Below are positions 926-45,577 of a stretch of 64,000 nt of DNA, piece by piece. A model generated the notes under the pieces. It saw only the letters and a list, made by a program, of their open reading frames with translations. It was not told the DNA's origin and searched no databases. The stretch is from Candidatus Bathyarchaeia archaeon (GTDB taxonomy: Archaea; Thermoproteota; Bathyarchaeia; Bathyarchaeales; Bathycorpusculaceae). The position numbers and the translations under genes are program-made. Every line of letters begins with the position of its first letter. Within the stretch, counting starts at the first letter, position 1. The stretch spans positions 2,446,162 to 2,510,161 of the forward strand of contig CP170178.1 in the NCBI GenBank assembly GCA_042296865.1. The letters run 5' to 3'.

Positions 926-965
926 ACTCGTAAAAGAGCGGTTTTTTGAAGCTGCTCCAAACAAC

Positions 966-1075
966 TTTTTTTCAACATATTAATGACTTGATTTTCAACC
1001 AATAACCACCTACCCCCCTTAGCGTTTCTGATAATTGTCTCCTAATTCGCCGTTAAGGACTTAGAGAATTGTTTA
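966..1075 (+). repeat. Intergenic repeat family, copy A (core ACCTACCCCCCTTAG at 1008-1022)
   Basis: Core is identical to copies at 17827, 43471 and 45360, and to 27716 on the minus strand. Flanks align with copy C (AACATATTAATG...) and copy B (CTTGATTTTCAACCA). Boundaries are approximate. Confidence 0.6.
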
Positions 1076-1139: not shown

Positions 1140-1280
1140 ATGGCAGAATCAGGCAAAGAATGCCCAGTCTGTAACGCTGTTTCTCCTAAACCTGAAGAAT
1201 TAACAAGCCACATTCAAACCCAGCATATGTTTGCCTTTGAGCATGCTTGGATGGATGTTTGCTTGGTACAATGCTGGTAA
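1140..1280 (+). CDS. Small (46 aa) C2H2-type zinc-finger protein
   Basis: ATG at 1140 inside track ORF 1086-1280. CPVC-x12-H-x4-H spacing (CPVCNAVSPKPEELTSHIQTQH) matches the classical C2H2 pattern. Short, so coding status is uncertain. Confidence 0.35.
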   Translation: MAESGKECPVCNAVSPKPEELTSHIQTQHMFAFEHAWMDVCLVQCW

Positions 1281-17773: not shown

Positions 17774-17799
17774 ACCGCCAAGTTCCTAACCATTCCTTA

Positions 17800-17888
17800 T
17801 TTTTGGCTTGATTTTCAACCATTAGCACCTACCCCCCTTAGGTTTTCTGCAATGATTGAATATTAGGATACAAATAGACTGCAAACAG
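17800..17888 (+). repeat. Intergenic repeat family, copy B (core ACCTACCCCCCTTAGG at 17827-17842)
   Basis: Lies between the convergent carB and hydrolase genes. Shares its left arm with copy A, and its right arm (GGTTTTCTGCAnnGATTnAATATTAGG...CAAATAG) with copy D. Confidence 0.65.
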
Positions 17889-17904
17889 GGTTAAAAAATG
17901 GAAA

Positions 17905-18777
17905 TTAAGCGGCTGGTTGCATTGGAGCCGTTTTTTCTTTTTCGGGTTTTAATTCGCCTTTGATGAATGCGAGCAAGTCCTCGTTAATCTGCTGTTTATG
18001 GGTAGTGCACATGCCGTGTGGTGCGCCCTTGTAAACTTTGAAAATATTGTTTTTAACGATTTTAGCGGAAAGCACGCCAGAATTGGCAATTGGCACAATC
18101 TGGTCATCGTCACCCTGCAAAATCAACGTGGGGACGTTAATTTTTTTTAGGTCAGCGTTTTGGTCTGTTTCCGAGAAAGCTTTAACACAGTAGTATACCG
18201 CTGGAAGGCTTGCCATCATGCCTTGAAGCCAGAAAGTGTTTCGGACGCCTTCAGAAACTTTAGCGTTTGGCCTATTGTAGCCGTAGAATTGCATTGATAA
18301 ATCCTTGAAGAATTGTGAGCGATCATCAAGTATTGCTTGTCTTAATTGGTCAAAAGCTTCCATTGGTGTGCCGCCGGGGTTTGCTGGGGTTTTAACCATA
18401 AGGGGCGGTATAGCTGATATCATAACGGCTTTTGAAACTCTGTCTGTTCCATGCCTTGCCATGTACCGAACAATTTCGCCGCCCCCAGTGGAATGCCCAA
18501 CTAAAACTATGTTGGTTAAATCCAGTTTTTCAATAAGACCCGAAAGGTCATCCGCGTAAGTGTCAAGGTCATGTCCTGTTCCAGGTTGGCTTGAACGTCC
18601 ATGCCCGCGTCTGTCATGTGCAATGCAACGGTAGCCTCTGGCAGCTAGAAAGAACATTTGGTCTTCAAACGCGTCGCTATTTAGCGGCCAACCGTGACTA
18701 AAAACTACTGGTTGACCATTACTGTTGCCCCAATCCTTGTAAAAAAGCTCAACACCATTCACGTTTATTTTTGCCAT
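17905..18777 (-). CDS. Alpha/beta hydrolase (non-heme haloperoxidase / arylesterase-like)
   Basis: [33 protein letters not shown] and the GHSTGGGE nucleophile elbow. ATG at 18777 preferred over 18813. Confidence 0.8.
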
Positions 18778-27574: not shown

Positions 27575-27667
27575 CTTTGGTTCTTCCTGTTAAGAGTGTA
27601 TTATGTTAAACTTGATAAAGGCTTTATCCTAAAAACAAAATTTGTACCTTACAGCAAAAGGTTAACC

Positions 27668-27760
27668 AACCTATTTGCCGTCTATTAGGATGCTAATAGT
27701 TATTCTATGCAAAAACCTATAGGGGGTAGACCATTTTAACGCTTTTTGCAGTGCAAAAAT
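27668..27760 (-). repeat. Intergenic repeat family, copy E (inverted; core CCTATAGGGGGTAGA on plus strand at 27716-27730)
   Basis: The reverse complement aligns with copy D (AAAAAGCGTnA...CTACCCCCTATAGGTTTTTGCATAGA...). It has 5 rather than 6 C. Lies in the divergent suhB/albA intergenic region. Confidence 0.55.
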
Positions 27761-27961
27761 TATGTTATAAAAACCACTTTAACCCTTTGGTTTTATGGTC
27801 GCATATTATGGTTTCTTCAAGTATAGTTTTTAGAGGCTATAAAATATCGACTTGTTTTTTGTTAGCCAGAAGAATCATTATGCACCACAACATATTTATG
27901 CTCGTAAAAAAAGCTACTAAACCGCACCTTAAAATGTTAATTTAGGAGTAAAGCTAAAACC

Positions 27962-42254: not shown

Positions 42255-43415
42255 TTGAACTTTGAATACGCTCAAAGAATCAAACGTTTACCACCCTACC
42301 TGTTTGCTGAAATAGAGAAAATGCAGAATGAAAAGAAAGCTCAAGGCGTCGATTTAATTTCGCTGAGCATTGGTGACCCTGACTTGCCACCGCCGGATTT
42401 TGTGGTGGATGCGCTTGCTAAAGAAGCTTCAAACCAGAAAAATCATAATTACTCGTTTAGTCAAGGTGAACCTGACTTCCGCGAAGCAGTTTCCCGTTGG
42501 TACAAGAACCGGTTCGGTGCGGATGTTGCACATGATCAAGTGGTGGCTTTGTTGGGTTCTAAGGAGGGTCTTGCAAACATTGCCCGCGCCTTCATCAATC
42601 CTGGTGACAAGGTGCTTGTTCCTGACCCAGCTTACCCAGTGTACGCTAACGGCAGCACGATTCTATGTGACGGAGATGCTGTGCCGATGCCTATGCTTGA
42701 AGACAACAATTTCCAGCCCGACTTAAACGCCATTGACCCACAAAACGCCAAAATGATGTTCTTAAACTACCCAAATAATCCCACCGCCGCAACCGTTGAC
42801 AAAGCTTTCCTTAAAGAAGCTGTGGACTTTGCCAAAGACAACAATATCATCTTATGTTATGACAATGCTTACTCGGAAATTACCTACGACGGTTACCGCG
42901 CCCCAAGCATCCTTGAGATTCCAGGCGCCGAAGAAGTCGCAATTGAATTTCACTCGCTTAGCAAAACGTTTAACATGACAGGTGACCGCATCGCGTTTGC
43001 CGTCGGCAATAAGCAGCTTGTGGCTGGCTTAACAAAAATCAAGTCCCAAATCGATTCTGGACCACCCGTTTACACCCAAAAAGTTGCCGTAGCAGCGCTT
43101 GGTGTTTACAAGAGCAGTGACCAACCAGAATTCCTGCGCAAAAACAATCAAATAATGCAAGAACGCCGTGACCTGCTTGTTGACACGTTGGCAAAAATTG
43201 GTTACCCCTGCAAGGCGCCTAAAGCAACCTTTTACGTGTGGGTAAACTGCAAGGGCGACTCAATGAAGTTTACGGCTAAACTGCTTGACGTCGGCGTGGC
43301 TGTAACGCCCGGCGTTGGGTTTGGCAAGTATGGTGAAGGCTACATACGCATGACGTTTACGCAGCCAAAAGAACGCATAAAAGAAGCCTGCAGCCGCATC
43401 GCAAGCGCCTTCTAA
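42255..43415 (+). CDS. dapL: LL-diaminopimelate aminotransferase (class I/II aminotransferase)
   Basis: RLPPYLFAEIEK N-terminus, the NPT motif, and SLSKTFNMTGDRIAF PLP-Lys motif. Last gene of the dap operon. Start is uncertain: TTG 42255 (2 nt after the dapF stop) or TTG 42204 (track). Confidence 0.75.
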   Translation: MNFEYAQRIKRLPPYLFAEIEKMQNEKKAQGVDLISLSIGDPDLPPPDFVVDALAKEASNQKNHNYSFSQGEPDFREAVSRWYKNRFGADVAHDQVVALLGSKEGLANIARAFINPGDKVLVPDPAYPVYANGSTILCDGDAVPMPMLEDNNFQPDLNAIDPQNAKMMFLNYPNNPTAATVDKAFLKEAVDFAKDNNIILCYDNAYSEITYDGYRAPSILEIPGAEEVAIEFHSLSKTFNMTGDRIAFAVGNKQLVAGLTKIKSQIDSGPPVYTQKVAVAALGVYKSSDQPEFLRKNNQIMQERRDLLVDTLAKIGYPCKAPKATFYVWVNCKGDSMKFTAKLLDVGVAVTPGVGFGKYGEGYIRMTFTQPKERIKEACSRIASAF

Positions 43416-43430
43416 CCCTCTTTTTTACTG

Positions 43431-43525
43431 TTTTTTAACATATTAATGGCGCTTTTTTCAGCCAATACTGACCTACCCCCCTTAGGTTTTTACATAGAAC
43501 CTCTAATAGGTGCCTTAGAACCAAA
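43431..43525 (+). repeat. Intergenic repeat family, copy C (core ACCTACCCCCCTTAGG at 43471-43486)
   Basis: Begins about 15 nt after the dapL stop. The left arm TTTTTTAACATATTAATGGC and right arm CCTCTAATAGGTGCCTTAGAACC align with copy A. Confidence 0.6.
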
Positions 43526-43546
43526 TTTTTTGGCTATTTTACGCCT

Positions 43547-44392
43547 TCAAACTTTTCTTTTTTTATGTTTCAAAAATGCGGTTAAAAGAACTGTGAACAG
43601 TATCAATGGAAACACAGACCAGCTGGGTATTTCTGGGATTGGGTTTGCTTCAATTATGTGCACAAGTGGTTGCGTATCAACAGCCCACCCTGTTTCGTAT
43701 GGTGTATCCCAAATTCCGGTTGCGTTGATTTCTTTAGCTTCTGGGTACTTGGCGGTGTAATTGCTGTAATAGTTGCGTTCTATAACTGGTGCTGTTGAAA
43801 GCCAAACTATAATATCGTTATTTATCAAGTTATTTTTTGTTATAACGCTGGCAGTGCCTTTGCAGTAATCAATGGAGATGGCGTTTGCGTTGTTTTCAAA
43901 AGTGTTTGAAGTGATAAGGTTGTTTTCAGAGCCAATCACAAAAATGCCCGAGTCACAACCTGTGATGTAATTATTGTCGAAAACATTATTCTTAGAATTG
44001 GTACAGGATATGCCTGCTGCAAAGTTTGTTATGCAAAAATTTGTTATAGTTACGTTGTTTATTCTTGCGCGTGATGGGTCTGCGCCGGAACCGTTCGATA
44101 AATCAAACGCTGAACCTGAACCATTTCCCTCAATAGTGTAGCCTCCTCCGTCAAGTATAATGTTGCTTCTTTGGATCTGAATGCTTCCTGAAAGGTTACC
44201 TGTCAAAGTGTACGTGTCTGCTTGTTTTAGGATTTGGTTTGTTCCTTTAACGCTTCCGTCAGGTTTGATAAAAACTGTTGAATCATTCTGTGCTGAAACA
44301 GTTTGAACGTTAATGAATACCGCTAATGCAAGTACAAGAATGGATGCAGTTGCTAATGCGTTTTTCATGAATAACTGGTAAAAAACTTTCAC
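43547..44392 (-). CDS. NosD-like parallel beta-helix surface protein with C-terminal PEI-TM-basic anchor
   Basis: 281 aa. Signal peptide, repeated N.I..N blocks, NYYSNY...GIWDTPY motif, and tail IPEIPSWSVFPLILFTVLLTAFLKHKKRKV. Confidence 0.7.
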   Translation of the reverse strand: MKVFYQLFMKNALATASILVLALAVFINVQTVSAQNDSTVFIKPDGSVKGTNQILKQADTYTLTGNLSGSIQIQRSNIILDGGGYTIEGNGSGSAFDLSNGSGADPSRARINNVTITNFCITNFAAGISCTNSKNNVFDNNYITGCDSGIFVIGSENNLITSNTFENNANAISIDYCKGTASVITKNNLINNDIIVWLSTAPVIERNYYSNYTAKYPEAKEINATGIWDTPYETGWAVDTQPLVHIIEANPIPEIPSWSVFPLILFTVLLTAFLKHKKRKV

Positions 44393-44447
44393 ATAAAAGA
44401 ATATTCGTCAAATTTTCTTGACTAACCAGTTACTGGTGTAAGAGAGG

Positions 44448-44735
44448 TTACTCTTGGGGTTCTTGTTTGTTTTGGTTTTTTGTTTTCCAGTCTTCCCGCA
44501 ATTTTTTTGCCATGTTGCCGTCTTCAAGTATGACTGGTCCTCGGTAGCCGCAGTTGTGGCAGTCCCAAATTGACCAGAACTGGGGCATGCCTTGTGCCCA
44601 GTAAACGTCGTCTGAGCCGCATTTTGGGCAGTACTTGATTGAGAAAAGTTTTGATTTTTTACTTGTTGTTTCTGGCAAACTGGTTTCCCTGCTTACTATG
44701 TTTTGGTTGTTTATTGAATTAAAACATTTTTCCAA
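44448..44735 (-). CDS. Small zinc-ribbon protein
   Basis: 95 aa. CPKCGS...CHNCG. Confidence 0.5.
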   Translation of the reverse strand: MEKCFNSINNQNIVSRETSLPETTSKKSKLFSIKYCPKCGSDDVYWAQGMPQFWSIWDCHNCGYRGPVILEDGNMAKKLREDWKTKNQNKQEPQE

Positions 44736-44853
44736 ATCTCGTCAAGGGATTGACTTTTTTGAAATGAATTGTGAATGGGCTCGTCTGTAAACCCTGCTAC
44801 ACGCTTACTTACAATATCAAAGGCTACCACAAGATTACATAAGGCGTTAAGAA

Positions 44854-45318
44854 ATGGAAAAACCTCCCTACGCTGGCAAGGTAGTTAAAACACTTGCACT
44901 CATTGCTCTTATTACAGTAACAAGCATTTCGCTTGCTTGTGCAATAGACAAACAAAATTACTCTATGAGACCAGTTCCGGAAAGCCTTGTTATACGTAAC
45001 CAAGGCGTGACTGTAAGCAACGGACAATACAACATTTCCTATTCAATAAATGCGCAGGAATCTTCGACAATTGAAAAAATTCTCATAAAACAAGCCAACA
45101 TTACCGACCCAACCACAAATGTTGCAGTCAATAAAGTAACCATTTACATTAACGGCACCACCATGAAGACAACAAGCCAACTGAATTACCAGCTAAACAG
45201 CGGTAGCAGCCTTCAACTAAACATCATTATCCCCTGCACAGCAACCAGCTCAAACCAAACGTCCCTAACAATCTATGCATCTAAAGCAATGTATTACATA
45301 GATACGGTGCTTCCATAA
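44854..45318 (+). CDS. Secreted/anchored hypothetical protein
   Basis: 154 aa. N-terminal hydrophobic segment LALIALITVTSISLACA and several NxT/S sequons. Confidence 0.5.
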   Translation: MEKPPYAGKVVKTLALIALITVTSISLACAIDKQNYSMRPVPESLVIRNQGVTVSNGQYNISYSINAQESSTIEKILIKQANITDPTTNVAVNKVTIYINGTTMKTTSQLNYQLNSGSSLQLNIIIPCTATSSNQTSLTIYASKAMYYIDTVLP

Positions 45319-45332
45319 TCAATTCTTCGTAT

Positions 45333-45427
45333 GCTTTTGATTGAAAAAGCGTCATTAGAACCTACCCCCCTATAGGTTTTCTGCATAGATTAAATATTAG
45401 GCCCCAAATAGGCTGCTAATAGACTGT
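45333..45427 (+). repeat. Intergenic repeat family, copy D (core ACCTACCCCCCTATAGG at 45360-45376)
   Basis: Preceded by hairpin GCTTTT-gattg-AAAAGC. The right arm matches copies B and E. Confidence 0.6.
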
Positions 45428-45457
45428 TTTATATATGGTGCATTGAACTGCATTGTT

Positions 45458-45577
45458 ATGTCTGATTTAGCTCCGAATTGTCCTTGCCCAAAACGAAGCT
45501 GCCAACTCCACGGCAACTGCACCGAATGCGTAAGGTATCATAAAGAAAGAAACGAGATGCCCTACTGTTCAAGATAA
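45458..45577 (+). CDS. 39-aa Cys-rich micro-protein (not in ORF track)
   Basis: Hand translation MSDLAPNCPCPKRSCQLHGNCTECVRYHKERNEMPYCSR. It has six Cys and two His in a metal-binding-like arrangement. The stop lies 2 nt from the convergent ccsA-like gene. Confidence 0.4.
   Translation: MSDLAPNCPCPKRSCQLHGNCTECVRYHKERNEMPYCSR

What the first reader, a model, noticed from the sequence alone, without database searches (positions are those of the whole stretch)
17800..17888. Five-copy intergenic repeat family with invariant ACCTACCCCCCTTAGG hairpin core
Copies lie at about 966-1075 (+), 17800-17888 (+), 43431-43525 (+), 45333-45427 (+) and 27668-27760 (-). The cores are at 1008, 17827, 43471, 45360 and 27716. 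The core can fold as a 5-bp stem (ACCTA/TAGGT) closing a C-rich 7-nt loop. Copies D and E have CTATAGG in place of CTTAGG, which extends the palindrome. Flanks are alignable pairwise over about 90-110 nt. A and C share TTTTTnAACATATTAATG and CCTAATnnGnGCCnTTAG. A and B share CTTGATTTTCAACCA. B, D and E share GGTTTT(C/T)TGCAnnGA...TATTAG...AATAG. D and E carry an extra upstream hairpin (GCTTTT-gattg-AAAAGC and TTTTTGC-act-GCAAAAA). All copies are strictly intergenic, and four sit just past plus-strand gene 3' ends. I see no terminal inverted repeats, target duplications or tRNA-like structure. The strongly conserved core with diverged arms suggests a functional RNA or protein-binding element rather than a recently spread MITE. 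I do not recognise it as any described archaeal RNA family.
Basis: seen in the sequence. Interest (0 to 1): 0.65.

Follow-up and report, generated by a model that had tools for sequence, protein, structure and literature searches.

The report
Dispersed intergenic DNA repeat of Bathyarchaeia
The five look-alike stretches are real copies of an undescribed, roughly 105-base non-coding repeat that is scattered through Bathyarchaeia genomes, mostly between genes that face each other; it behaves like the dispersed repeat families of bacteria (REP, BOX) and shows no sign of being a structured RNA.

Summary
The window has five copies, at about 955-1066 (+), 17796-17889 (+), 43418-43519 (+), 45309-45426 (+) and 27666-27784 (-), and no others. 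The core is far above chance but not strictly invariant: it is exact only in B and C.

The family is much larger. I found about 30 more copies in Bathyarchaeia genomes and metagenomes, and at least 23 contigs of the source metagenome carry a core 90% or more like copy C.

It matches no Rfam family, tRNA or coding frame.

Tests for RNA function all failed:
- No covariation in the core hairpin or the upstream hairpins.
- No fold more stable than shuffled sequence.
- No terminal inverted repeats.
- No convincing promoter.

What stands:
- Conserved sequence blocks at fixed spacing.
- A 3' module of TAG-containing units 11-12 nt apart.
- Strong enrichment between convergent genes (15 of 29 against a 14% baseline).
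- No orientation preference between same-direction genes.
- Fast turnover at orthologous sites: 1-3 tandem units, decay, an inverted part, presence or absence.
- Copies at different loci that are more alike than orthologous copies.

Best reading (confidence 0.45): a REP/BOX-like dispersed DNA repeat spread by duplication and gene conversion, whose blocks are probably protein recognition sites. Whether the host uses it is open.

The parts
955..1066 (+). Copy A, the most degenerate. 5' block TTTTTTTCAACATATTAATG at 966-985. Core ACCTACCCCCCTTAGC at 1008-1023. The 3' module is only vestigial (1030-1066).
   Evidence: nhmmer 955-1056, 43 bits
17796..17889 (+). Copy B, the finding's own coordinates. 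It starts 23 nt after the carB stop codon. Core ACCTACCCCCCTTAGG at 17827-17842 with a T4 tail. 3' module TGCAATGATTGAATATTAGGATACAAATAGACTGCAAACAGG at 17848-17889. The convergent hydrolase gene ends at 17905.
   Evidence: (70.7 bits)
43418..43519 (+). Copy C. It starts 3 nt after the dapL stop codon. 5' block TTTTTTAACATATTAATGG. Core at 43471-43486. 3' module TACATAGAACCTCTAATAGGTGCCTTAG at 43491-43518. Core plus 3' module is 40/40 identical to L001, which is another species at a non-syntenic locus.
   Evidence: (71.4 bits)
45309..45426 (+). Copy D. Core ACCTACCCCCCTATAGGT at 45360-45377. The 3' module (45380-45426) has three 11-nt units: ATATTAGGCC, CCAAATAGGCT, GCTAATAGACT. A conserved 39-aa Cys-rich ORF with its own TATA-like box follows.
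   Evidence: (69.2 bits)
27666..27784 (-). Copy E. Core GGTCTACCCCCTATAGGT at 27732-27715. 3' module TTTTGCATAGAATAACTATTAGCATCCTAATAGACGGCAAATAGGTTGG at 27714-27666. It lies in the divergent gap between Alba (27962, +) and the inositol monophosphatase gene (start 27574, -).
   Evidence: (59.4 bits)

Best explanation
The five stretches belong to a lineage-specific, modular, non-coding DNA repeat family of Bathyarchaeia. It is the same kind of thing as the bacterial REP/BIME, BOX and ERIC families.

One unit runs about 105 nt and has these blocks:
- A T-run followed by CAACAT.
- A TTTAGG / TTAATGG / CTATTGG block.
- A variable spacer of about 12 nt, either A-rich or T-rich.
- CCAATAC-n-GAC.
- The core, CCTA - C5-8 - (n) - TAGG - T4-6.
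- TGCAATGA or TGCATAGA.
- Two or three AATAG(G)-type units spaced 11 nt apart, with a sharp 3' end.

Shown:
- It is multi-copy.
- It does not code for protein.
- It has no supported RNA structure, promoter or inverted ends.
- It accumulates in gaps between convergent genes.
- Its unit number, orientation and presence change between close relatives.
- Copies at different loci can stay more alike than orthologous copies.

Inferred:
- It spreads and is homogenised at the DNA level, by duplication, unequal or ectopic recombination and gene conversion. A trans-acting transposase or recombinase encoded elsewhere may also be involved.
- It survives where insertions do no harm, that is, where no promoter is disrupted.
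- The conserved blocks (CCTA/TAGG half-sites and the phased AATAGG units) are recognition sites for a DNA-binding protein.

Its forward-strand T-runs probably also stop transcription from an upstream gene of the same orientation. I regard that as a side effect, not the reason the repeat exists.
For: Copy number:
- Five copies in 64 kb.
- In the source metagenome 23 contigs, those listed at about the genome's own coverage, carry a sequence 90% or more like copy C. Summed depth is 535-640 against 26.9 for single-copy sequence, so about 20 or more further copies.
- Assembly contigs end at the cores of E, C and D, and some cross-join different copies.
- About 30 further copies occur in Bathyarchaeia MAGs and metagenome contigs. 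None occur in viral contigs.

Non-coding: the stretch from the core to the TGCA after the T-run is 24, 25 or 26 nt in different copies.

No RNA signal.

No promoter: a promoter matrix learned from 32 genes of this window (AAAGGTTTAA) does not mark the 5' block. Its only consistent hit is one reverse-strand position, which is within chance for 260 positions.

Context:
- 15 of 29 copies lie in convergent gaps. Only 14% of all gaps of 90 nt or more are convergent.
- 4 of the 7 such convergent gaps in the window are occupied.
- Between genes of the same direction, orientation is 6 with the genes against 5 opposed.

Turnover downstream of dapL:
- The window has 1 unit, L040 has 2 and L042 has 3.
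- L041 and L043 have decayed units.
- L044 and L045 (81-82% protein identity) have none.

Turnover downstream of carB:
- L051 has a truncated copy, then a 244-aa gene, then a complete copy.
- L052 has the 5'+core part inverted next to a forward 3' module.

Other turnover:
- L040 has a copy where the window has none, and L041 lacks D.
- L011 and L024 share 118 identical bases and diverge right at the 3' end of the repeat.
- Copy C is 40/40 identical to L001, which is non-syntenic, while its true ortholog in L040 differs.
Against: - No transposase, integrase or RAYT-like gene in the window.
- No inverted ends. No target duplication seen.
- No clean empty-site/filled-site pair was recovered, so movement is inferred and not shown.
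- The window's own copies are diverged and several sit at positions conserved between species, so they are not recent insertions.
- In the orthologous pair window-E / L048, the stretches TTTTGCATAGAAT (13/13) and CCTAATAGRCGGCAAATAGGTTGG (22/23) are conserved while the flanks fall to 15-50% identity. That looks like purifying selection or concerted evolution, and could mean the host uses the element.
- Most metagenome copies were found with a pattern that requires the core. Core conservation outside the window is therefore partly an effect of how they were found.
Confidence: 0.45

Rival explanations
1. The host uses it as DNA-level 'punctuation'. The phased AATAGG units and the CCTA-Cn-TAGG core bind a host protein at operon ends between convergent genes, for example as a roadblock to converging RNA polymerases or as a site for a topoisomerase or nucleoid protein, as reported for some bacterial REP/BIME elements (my own knowledge, not tested here).
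For: - Strong excess in convergent gaps, with 4 of 7 such gaps in the window occupied.
- TAG-containing units at spacings of 13/12/11/11 nt, close to a helical repeat (read).
- The 3' module is 95% conserved between orthologs while the flanks are not.
- Orientation does not matter between same-direction genes, which suits a double-stranded DNA site.
Against: - Orthologous copies decay: the core is lost in L043, L041 and L048.
- Relatives at 81-82% identity do without it.
- Unit number and orientation vary.
- The short motif is not enriched elsewhere in the window: 6 found against 3.2 expected.
- No candidate factor is known.
Confidence: 0.22
2. It acts as RNA. Either it is a 3' UTR module (a small C-loop hairpin plus a U-tract that terminates and protects the upstream mRNA), or it is a family of small RNAs whose C-rich loop pairs with G-rich ribosome-binding sites.
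For: - Copies A-D directly follow genes of the same strand.
- Forward-strand T-runs lie after the core and in the 5' block.
- The one-sided changes that keep a pair in the core stem are to G-U on the forward strand (4 at the first pair, 1 at the second, 2 at the third).
- In seven loci of other lineages a TTTAA box lies about 30 nt upstream of the repeat's 5' end.
Against: - No compensatory change in the core stem. In the variants TAGCG, TAGTG and CTACCGC the stem is simply broken.
- No consensus fold. Energies are like shuffles and the five minimum-energy folds differ.
- Upstream hairpins are not supported.
- 5 of 11 copies between same-direction genes are antisense to both neighbours.
- No promoter-matrix hit in the 5' block. 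No common terminator after the 3' module.
- A copy number of dozens per genome is unusual for a small-RNA family.
- No RNA-seq run could be found, so transcription is untested.
Confidence: 0.18
3. It is a site-specific recombination (att- or attC-like) site at which single genes or small blocks are gained and lost.
For: - In L051 a 244-aa gene sits between two copies in direct orientation, where the window has one copy and no gene.
- Gene order downstream of dapL differs between relatives from the repeat onwards. A NosD-like gene follows copy C only in the window.
- Mosaic copies: L001 pairs a 5' half like D with a 3' half like C.
- The core is two inverted 4-5 bp arms around a spacer.
Against: - The spacer length varies from 6 to 8 nt, which tyrosine recombinases do not tolerate.
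- The arms are very short.
- There is no overall imperfect palindrome as in attC.
- Copies are separated by multi-gene housekeeping operons, not by cassettes.
- No integrase is in the window.
- Homologous recombination between repeats explains the same patterns.
Confidence: 0.1

Closest known systems
REP / BIME / REPIN elements of Proteobacteria, with their RAYT transposases (PMC3116915, PMC3337134, PMC3686654)
   Same: - Short non-coding repeats, with dozens or more per genome.
- Confined to intergenic DNA, typically at operon ends.
- Clustered in variable tandem arrangements.
- Vertically persistent yet turning over.
- No terminal inverted repeats or target duplications.
   Different: - REPs are G+C-rich imperfect palindromes of 20-40 nt. 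REPINs are inverted pairs of them.
- Here the only palindrome is a 5-bp stem without evolutionary support.
- Tandem units here are direct, not inverted. One inverted segment was seen, in L052.
- No RAYT gene was seen, and none could be searched for genome-wide.
BOX elements of Streptococcus pneumoniae
   Same: Modular build of a 5' box, a variable number of internal sub-units and a 3' box. Intergenic, about a hundred copies, no known transposase, function disputed.
   Different: No sequence relation. BOX elements are predicted to fold stably as RNA, which this repeat does not. Different domain of life.
MITEs of bacteria and archaea (PMC11602168, PMC10969869)
   Same: Small, non-autonomous, intergenic and lineage-specific.
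   Different: MITEs are defined by terminal inverted repeats and target-site duplications. Inverted ends were tested here and are absent. The TIR-based census in PMC11602168 would not detect this family, and its text does not mention Bathyarchaeia.
Integron attC sites, including those reported in Archaea (PMC9668308)
   Same: They sit just past the 3' ends of genes. In one relative a single gene is bracketed by two copies.
   Different: No overall hairpin symmetry. The centre is conserved and the ends are less so, the reverse of attC. There are no cassette arrays and no integrase nearby.
Archaeal oligo-T intrinsic terminators (my own knowledge)
   Same: Two to four T4-T7 runs on the forward strand within about 100 nt after stop codons.
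   Different: Terminators need no conserved non-T sequence and must be co-oriented with the gene. This repeat keeps about 60 non-T positions and is antisense to both neighbours in 5 of 11 copies between same-direction genes.

Membership tests
Any Rfam 15 RNA family | Covariance-model score at or above the family's gathering threshold | tested here: not met
   Window at gathering threshold: only tRNA-Gly. E-value mode on 14 loci and on 43380-45480: only a tRNA and chance-level hits with E above 1.
Structured RNA in general | Base pairs kept through compensatory changes; a fold more stable than shuffled sequence | tested here: not met
   - Core stem: 0 of 5 pairs have changes on both sides, and the shuffled controls score the same.
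- RNAalifold covariation term is 0.01.
- Upstream arms: 5.83 within copies against 5.71 between copies, p = 0.31.
- z-scores are 0.47, -2.46, -1.54, -0.75 and 0.95.
MITE | Terminal inverted repeats | tested here: not met
   Local alignment of the 5' 28 nt against the reverse complement of the 3' 36 nt in 19 copies gives a mean z of -0.25.
MITE | Target-site duplication flanking each copy | tested here: inconclusive
   None seen by eye. The 5' boundary is not sharp (B, D and several other copies lack the 5' block), so no systematic test was possible.
MITE / non-autonomous transposon | A parent element with the same ends that encodes a transposase | not tested
   None in the window (Pfam scans).
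REP / REPIN-RAYT | A G+C-rich imperfect palindrome of 20-40 nt, usually in inverted pairs | tested here: not met
   The only palindrome is ACCTA..TAGGT (5 bp). Tandem units are direct.
REP / REPIN-RAYT | A single-copy RAYT (Y1 transposase) gene flanked by the repeats | not tested
   No Y1_Tnp hit among the window's proteins.
Integron attC | R''(RYYYAAC)...R'(GTTRRRY) ends that pair into a bulged hairpin; arrays of single-gene cassettes | tested here: not met
   The ends are not complementary. There is no stable fold. Copies lie 2-17 kb apart, separated by housekeeping operons.
tRNA-like element / box C/D sRNA | A cloverleaf, or C (RUGAUGA) and D (CUGA) boxes | tested here: not met
   ARAGORN finds one tRNA, elsewhere in the window. 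No C/D-box family scores better than E = 1.9, and those hits are not at the repeat.
Independent archaeal gene with its own BRE/TATA promoter | A promoter-like box about 25-30 nt upstream of a fixed start | tested here: inconclusive
   - A matrix from 32 local promoters gives no consistent forward hit in the 5' block.
- One reverse-strand position in the core tail scores 6.4-6.8 bits in 84% of copies. One such position among 260 is expected by chance.
- The spacing from AACAT to the core is fixed at 35-37 nt (read).
Archaeal oligo-T terminator | T-runs on the sense strand just downstream of a gene of the same orientation | tested here: inconclusive
   T4-T7 runs are present in all copies. Orientation relative to same-direction neighbours is 6 with against 5 opposed. 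No Term-seq data are available.

The most novel reading that the evidence does not exclude
The repeat is not junk. It is a host-used protein-binding site array (CCTA-Cn-TAGG plus AATAGG units phased at 11 nt) that marks operon ends between convergent genes in Bathyarchaeia. It could act as a roadblock or topology-control element for converging transcription, or as the recombination site at which single genes are gained and lost.
Probability: 0.2. Interest if true: 0.75.

Novelty: new member of a known kind. Interest (0 to 1): 0.4.

Why it matters
- **No described family yet.** Bathyarchaeia are abundant, uncultured archaea. I found no described dispersed repeat family for them in two literature searches. 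The large TIR-based MITE census (PMC11602168) could not have seen this one.
- **Practical effect.** The repeat breaks short-read assemblies exactly at its core. It marks operon ends and sits at places where gene order changes between relatives.
- **Biological interest.** If the 3' module, which is conserved across species, binds a protein, it would give an experimental handle on what happens where transcription converges in an archaeal lineage with no genetics. If the repeat is purely selfish, it is an archaeal counterpart of REP/BOX populations and a marker for strain typing and genome dynamics.

Tried and rejected
**Tested and rejected**
- Known RNA family: Rfam at gathering threshold and in E-value mode found nothing.
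- tRNA-like element: none.
- Coding on either strand: rejected because of 24/25/26-nt length variants and TAG codons in all three frames.
- Viral origin: no hit in IMG/VR.
- 3' module as a hairpin: the partner columns do not covary. The units are direct repeats of a near-palindromic 7-mer (read).
- AATAGG-type motif as a general operator: not enriched in the window.
- Integron attC and tyrosine-recombinase core site: considered and set aside (see the membership table).

**My own readings that proper tests did not support**
- Upstream 'hairpin 1' with compensatory changes. It looked convincing by eye, but a within-copy against between-copy permutation test gave p = 0.31 with no strand asymmetry.
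- Imperfect terminal inverted repeats (AACATATTAATGG against CCTAATAGGTT). Also convincing by eye, but not above shuffles.
- The 5' block as a BRE/TATA box. Not supported by a matrix learned from local promoters.

**Could not be done**
Transcription is untested.

Full report

Yes. The 16-mer ACCTACCCCCCTTAGG occurs exactly at 17827 and 43471 and with one mismatch at 1008, against 0.02 expected. CCTACCCCCCT occurs four times against 0.4 expected.

A profile built from 30 family members finds these five copies in the window and no sixth. All five are intergenic.

The neighbours are housekeeping genes:
- B closes an argG-argH-carA-carB operon.
- C closes a dapA-dapB-asd-lysA-dapF-dapL operon.
- E lies between Alba and an inositol monophosphatase gene.

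Among the open reading frames of 100 aa or more that I scanned there is no transposase or integrase. The few left unscanned are ribosomal-protein and dap-operon genes by synteny with L040.

**2. The family is much larger than five.**

- A pattern scan of species-representative genomes found four more copies, all in Bathyarchaeia MAGs.
- A relaxed pattern in metagenome contigs gave 35 stretches, about 25 of them clearly homologous. The profile then found further, more degenerate copies beside them.
- Nothing matched in viral contigs.
- The window is the same strain as GCA_030153525.1.
- In the source bioreactor runs, assembly contigs stop exactly at the cores of E, C and D, and short contigs cross-join different copies.
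- Twenty-three contigs are 90% or more like copy C; the eight listed have depths of 20-28, about the genome's own coverage. Summed depth is 535-640 against 26.9 for single-copy DNA.
- So this genome holds dozens of copies.

**3. Anatomy.**

The aligned copies show conserved sequence blocks at fixed spacing:
- A T-run followed by CAACAT.
- A TTTAGG / TTAATGG / CTATTGG block.
- A variable spacer of about 12 nt that is A-rich in some copies and T-rich in others.
- CCAATAC-n-GAC.
- The core: CCTA, then five to eight C, then one to three bases, then TAGG, then T4-6.
- TGCAATGA or TGCATAGA.
- Two or three units of the type (C)CWAATAG(G), 11 nt apart.

Further details:
- Conservation stops abruptly after the last unit.
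- The distance from AACAT to the core is 35-37 nt in every full copy.
- B, D and several others lack the first block. Other copies lack the 3' module.
- The stretch from the core to the TGCA after the T-run is 24, 25 or 26 nt long, and TAG occurs in all three frames. So it does not code for protein.

**4. Tests of the RNA reading all failed.**

- Rfam has no match at gathering threshold or in E-value mode.
- RNAalifold predicts only the 5-bp core stem, with a covariation term of 0.01.
- On 37 copies that stem has no pair with changes on both sides and is indistinguishable from shuffled controls. Where the 3' arm changes (TAGCG, TAGTG, CTACCGC) the stem is simply lost.
- By eye I believed the upstream arms (TTAATGG...CCAATA and relatives) covaried. 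A permutation test gave 5.83 pairs within copies against 5.71 between copies, p = 0.31, with no difference between strands.
- The five window copies fold no better than shuffles and into five different shapes.
- The 3' module is a set of direct repeats of a near-palindromic 7-mer, not a covarying hairpin.
- No RNA-seq run holding any tested copy could be found. Transcription therefore remains untested, not excluded.

**5. Tests of the promoter and transposon readings.**

- A Gibbs-sampled matrix from 32 upstream regions of this window recovers a plausible BRE/TATA motif, AAAGGTTTAA, 26-54 nt (mostly 34-54) before start codons.
- That matrix does not mark the 5' block of the repeat. Its only consistent hit is one reverse-strand position in the core tail, which is within chance for 260 positions.
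- The ends of the repeat are not inverted repeats (mean z -0.25).
- So it is neither a demonstrable gene with its own promoter nor a MITE.

**6. Where it sits.**

I classified 29 of the 34 copies scanned by their neighbouring genes, using crude ORF calls; the other five lacked a called neighbour on one side or duplicated another locus:

| Context | Copies |
|---|---|
| Between convergent genes | 15 |
| Between same-direction genes, same orientation | 6 |
| Between same-direction genes, opposite orientation | 5 |
| Between divergent genes | 3 |

Among all gaps of 90 nt or more in the window and nine long related loci, only 14% are convergent. In the window, four of seven such convergent gaps carry a copy, against one of eighteen other gaps.

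The lack of orientation preference between same-direction genes argues against a function tied to the upstream mRNA. It fits either a double-stranded DNA function or simple survival where no promoter is disrupted.

**7. How it evolves.**

Downstream of dapL:
- Upstream gene order is the same in seven genomes.
- The window has one unit, L040 has two tandem units and L042 has three.
- L041 and L043 have decayed units (the C-run or TAGG is lost).
- L044 and L045 (81-82% protein identity) have none.

Downstream of carB:
- L053 has a copy without the 3' module.
- L051 has such a copy, then a 244-aa gene, then a complete copy.
- L052 has the 5'+core part inverted beside a forward 3' module.

Other changes:
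- L040 has a copy where the window has none, and L041 lacks copy D upstream of a conserved small ORF.
- L011 and L024 share 118 identical bases and diverge exactly at the repeat's 3' end.
- Copy C's core plus 3' module is 40/40 identical to L001, a non-syntenic locus in another species, while its true ortholog differs.
- In the orthologous pair E / L048 the core has decayed, but TTTTGCATAGAAT and CCTAATAGRCGGCAAATAGGTTGG are 95-100% conserved. Identity falls to 15% immediately after.

**8. Interpretation.**

These patterns match the known behaviour of dispersed intergenic repeat families such as REP/BIME and BOX: many copies, no coding or RNA signature, preference for promoter-free gaps, tandem unit changes, inversions, presence/absence, and copies at different loci that are more alike than orthologs.

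I therefore read the element as a new family of that kind. I think it spreads and is homogenised at the DNA level, and that its conserved blocks are most likely protein recognition sites (confidence 0.45).

The conserved 3' module and the high occupancy of convergent gaps keep a host-function reading alive (0.22). An RNA role (0.18) and a recombination-site role (0.10) are less likely, for the reasons given under each rival.

Movement itself is inferred and not shown. I recovered no clean filled/empty pair and no partner enzyme.

**9. Caveats.**

- Most metagenome copies were found with a pattern that demands the core, so its conservation outside the window is partly circular.
- ORF calls in short loci are crude.
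- The copy-number estimate counts contigs of a metagenome that may contain related strains.
- The genome-wide and metagenome-wide scans were capped, so no search for a parent element or for co-distributed genes was possible.

Noticed in passing
window 45458-45577 (+): A 39-aa Cys-rich ORF (MSDLAPNCPCPKRSCQLHGNCTECVRYHKERNEMPYCSR) with its own TTTTATATAT box. It is conserved in L041, where no repeat precedes it. It has no Pfam hit.
   Followed up: partly
window 1140-1280 (+): A 46-aa ORF just after copy A with a weak C2H2 zinc-finger match (E = 0.00094, below the Pfam cut-off).
   Followed up: partly
window 43547-44392 (-): A NosD/beta-helix gene lies right after copy C. It is absent at the orthologous place in L040 and L041, so there is an insertion or deletion next to the repeat.
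   Followed up: partly
L005, L012, L016, L024, L026, L029, L034 (upstream of their repeat copies, except L024 where it lies about 65 nt downstream of the copy): A second conserved non-coding block, GATTCCTCC...GATTTAAnnnnGGTCTCAGAAGTG, ends 10-15 nt before the repeat's 5' end. The TTTAA box is at about the right distance to start transcription there. It is not present in the window.
   Followed up: partly
L011 30-45, L016 2981-2996, L029 1152-1167, L033 6272-6287, L005 5271-5286: Core-like variants in which the centre is a full TATA-like box (CCCCCCTATAAATAGGTTCAACAT). Their relation to the core of the repeat is unexplained.
   Followed up: no
L051 6885-7870: A 244-aa gene without a Pfam hit is bracketed by a truncated copy and a complete copy of the repeat. 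The window has a single copy and no gene at this place.
   Followed up: partly
L052 7078-7116: The 5' block plus core of the repeat lies in inverted orientation next to a forward 3' module, in the carB-hydrolase gap.
   Followed up: no
window 27700-27722, 43462-43491, 45362-45389: Short-read (Logan) contigs of the source runs end at the repeat cores, and some cross-join different copies. The repeat is a systematic assembly breakpoint.
   Followed up: yes
L001 1136-1200: An 8-bp inverted repeat, GCTACCCT...AGGGTAGC, encloses about 45 nt and begins with a core-like CTACCCTATTTAGGTTGAAC.
   Followed up: no
L028 4941-5062: A tRNA match 122 nt long (probably intron-containing) lies about 50 nt upstream of a core-only copy of the repeat.
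   Followed up: no
window, upstream regions of 32 genes: Gibbs sampling gives a promoter motif for this organism, AAAGGTTTAA, mostly 34-54 nt before start codons. That implies short leaders.
   Followed up: partly
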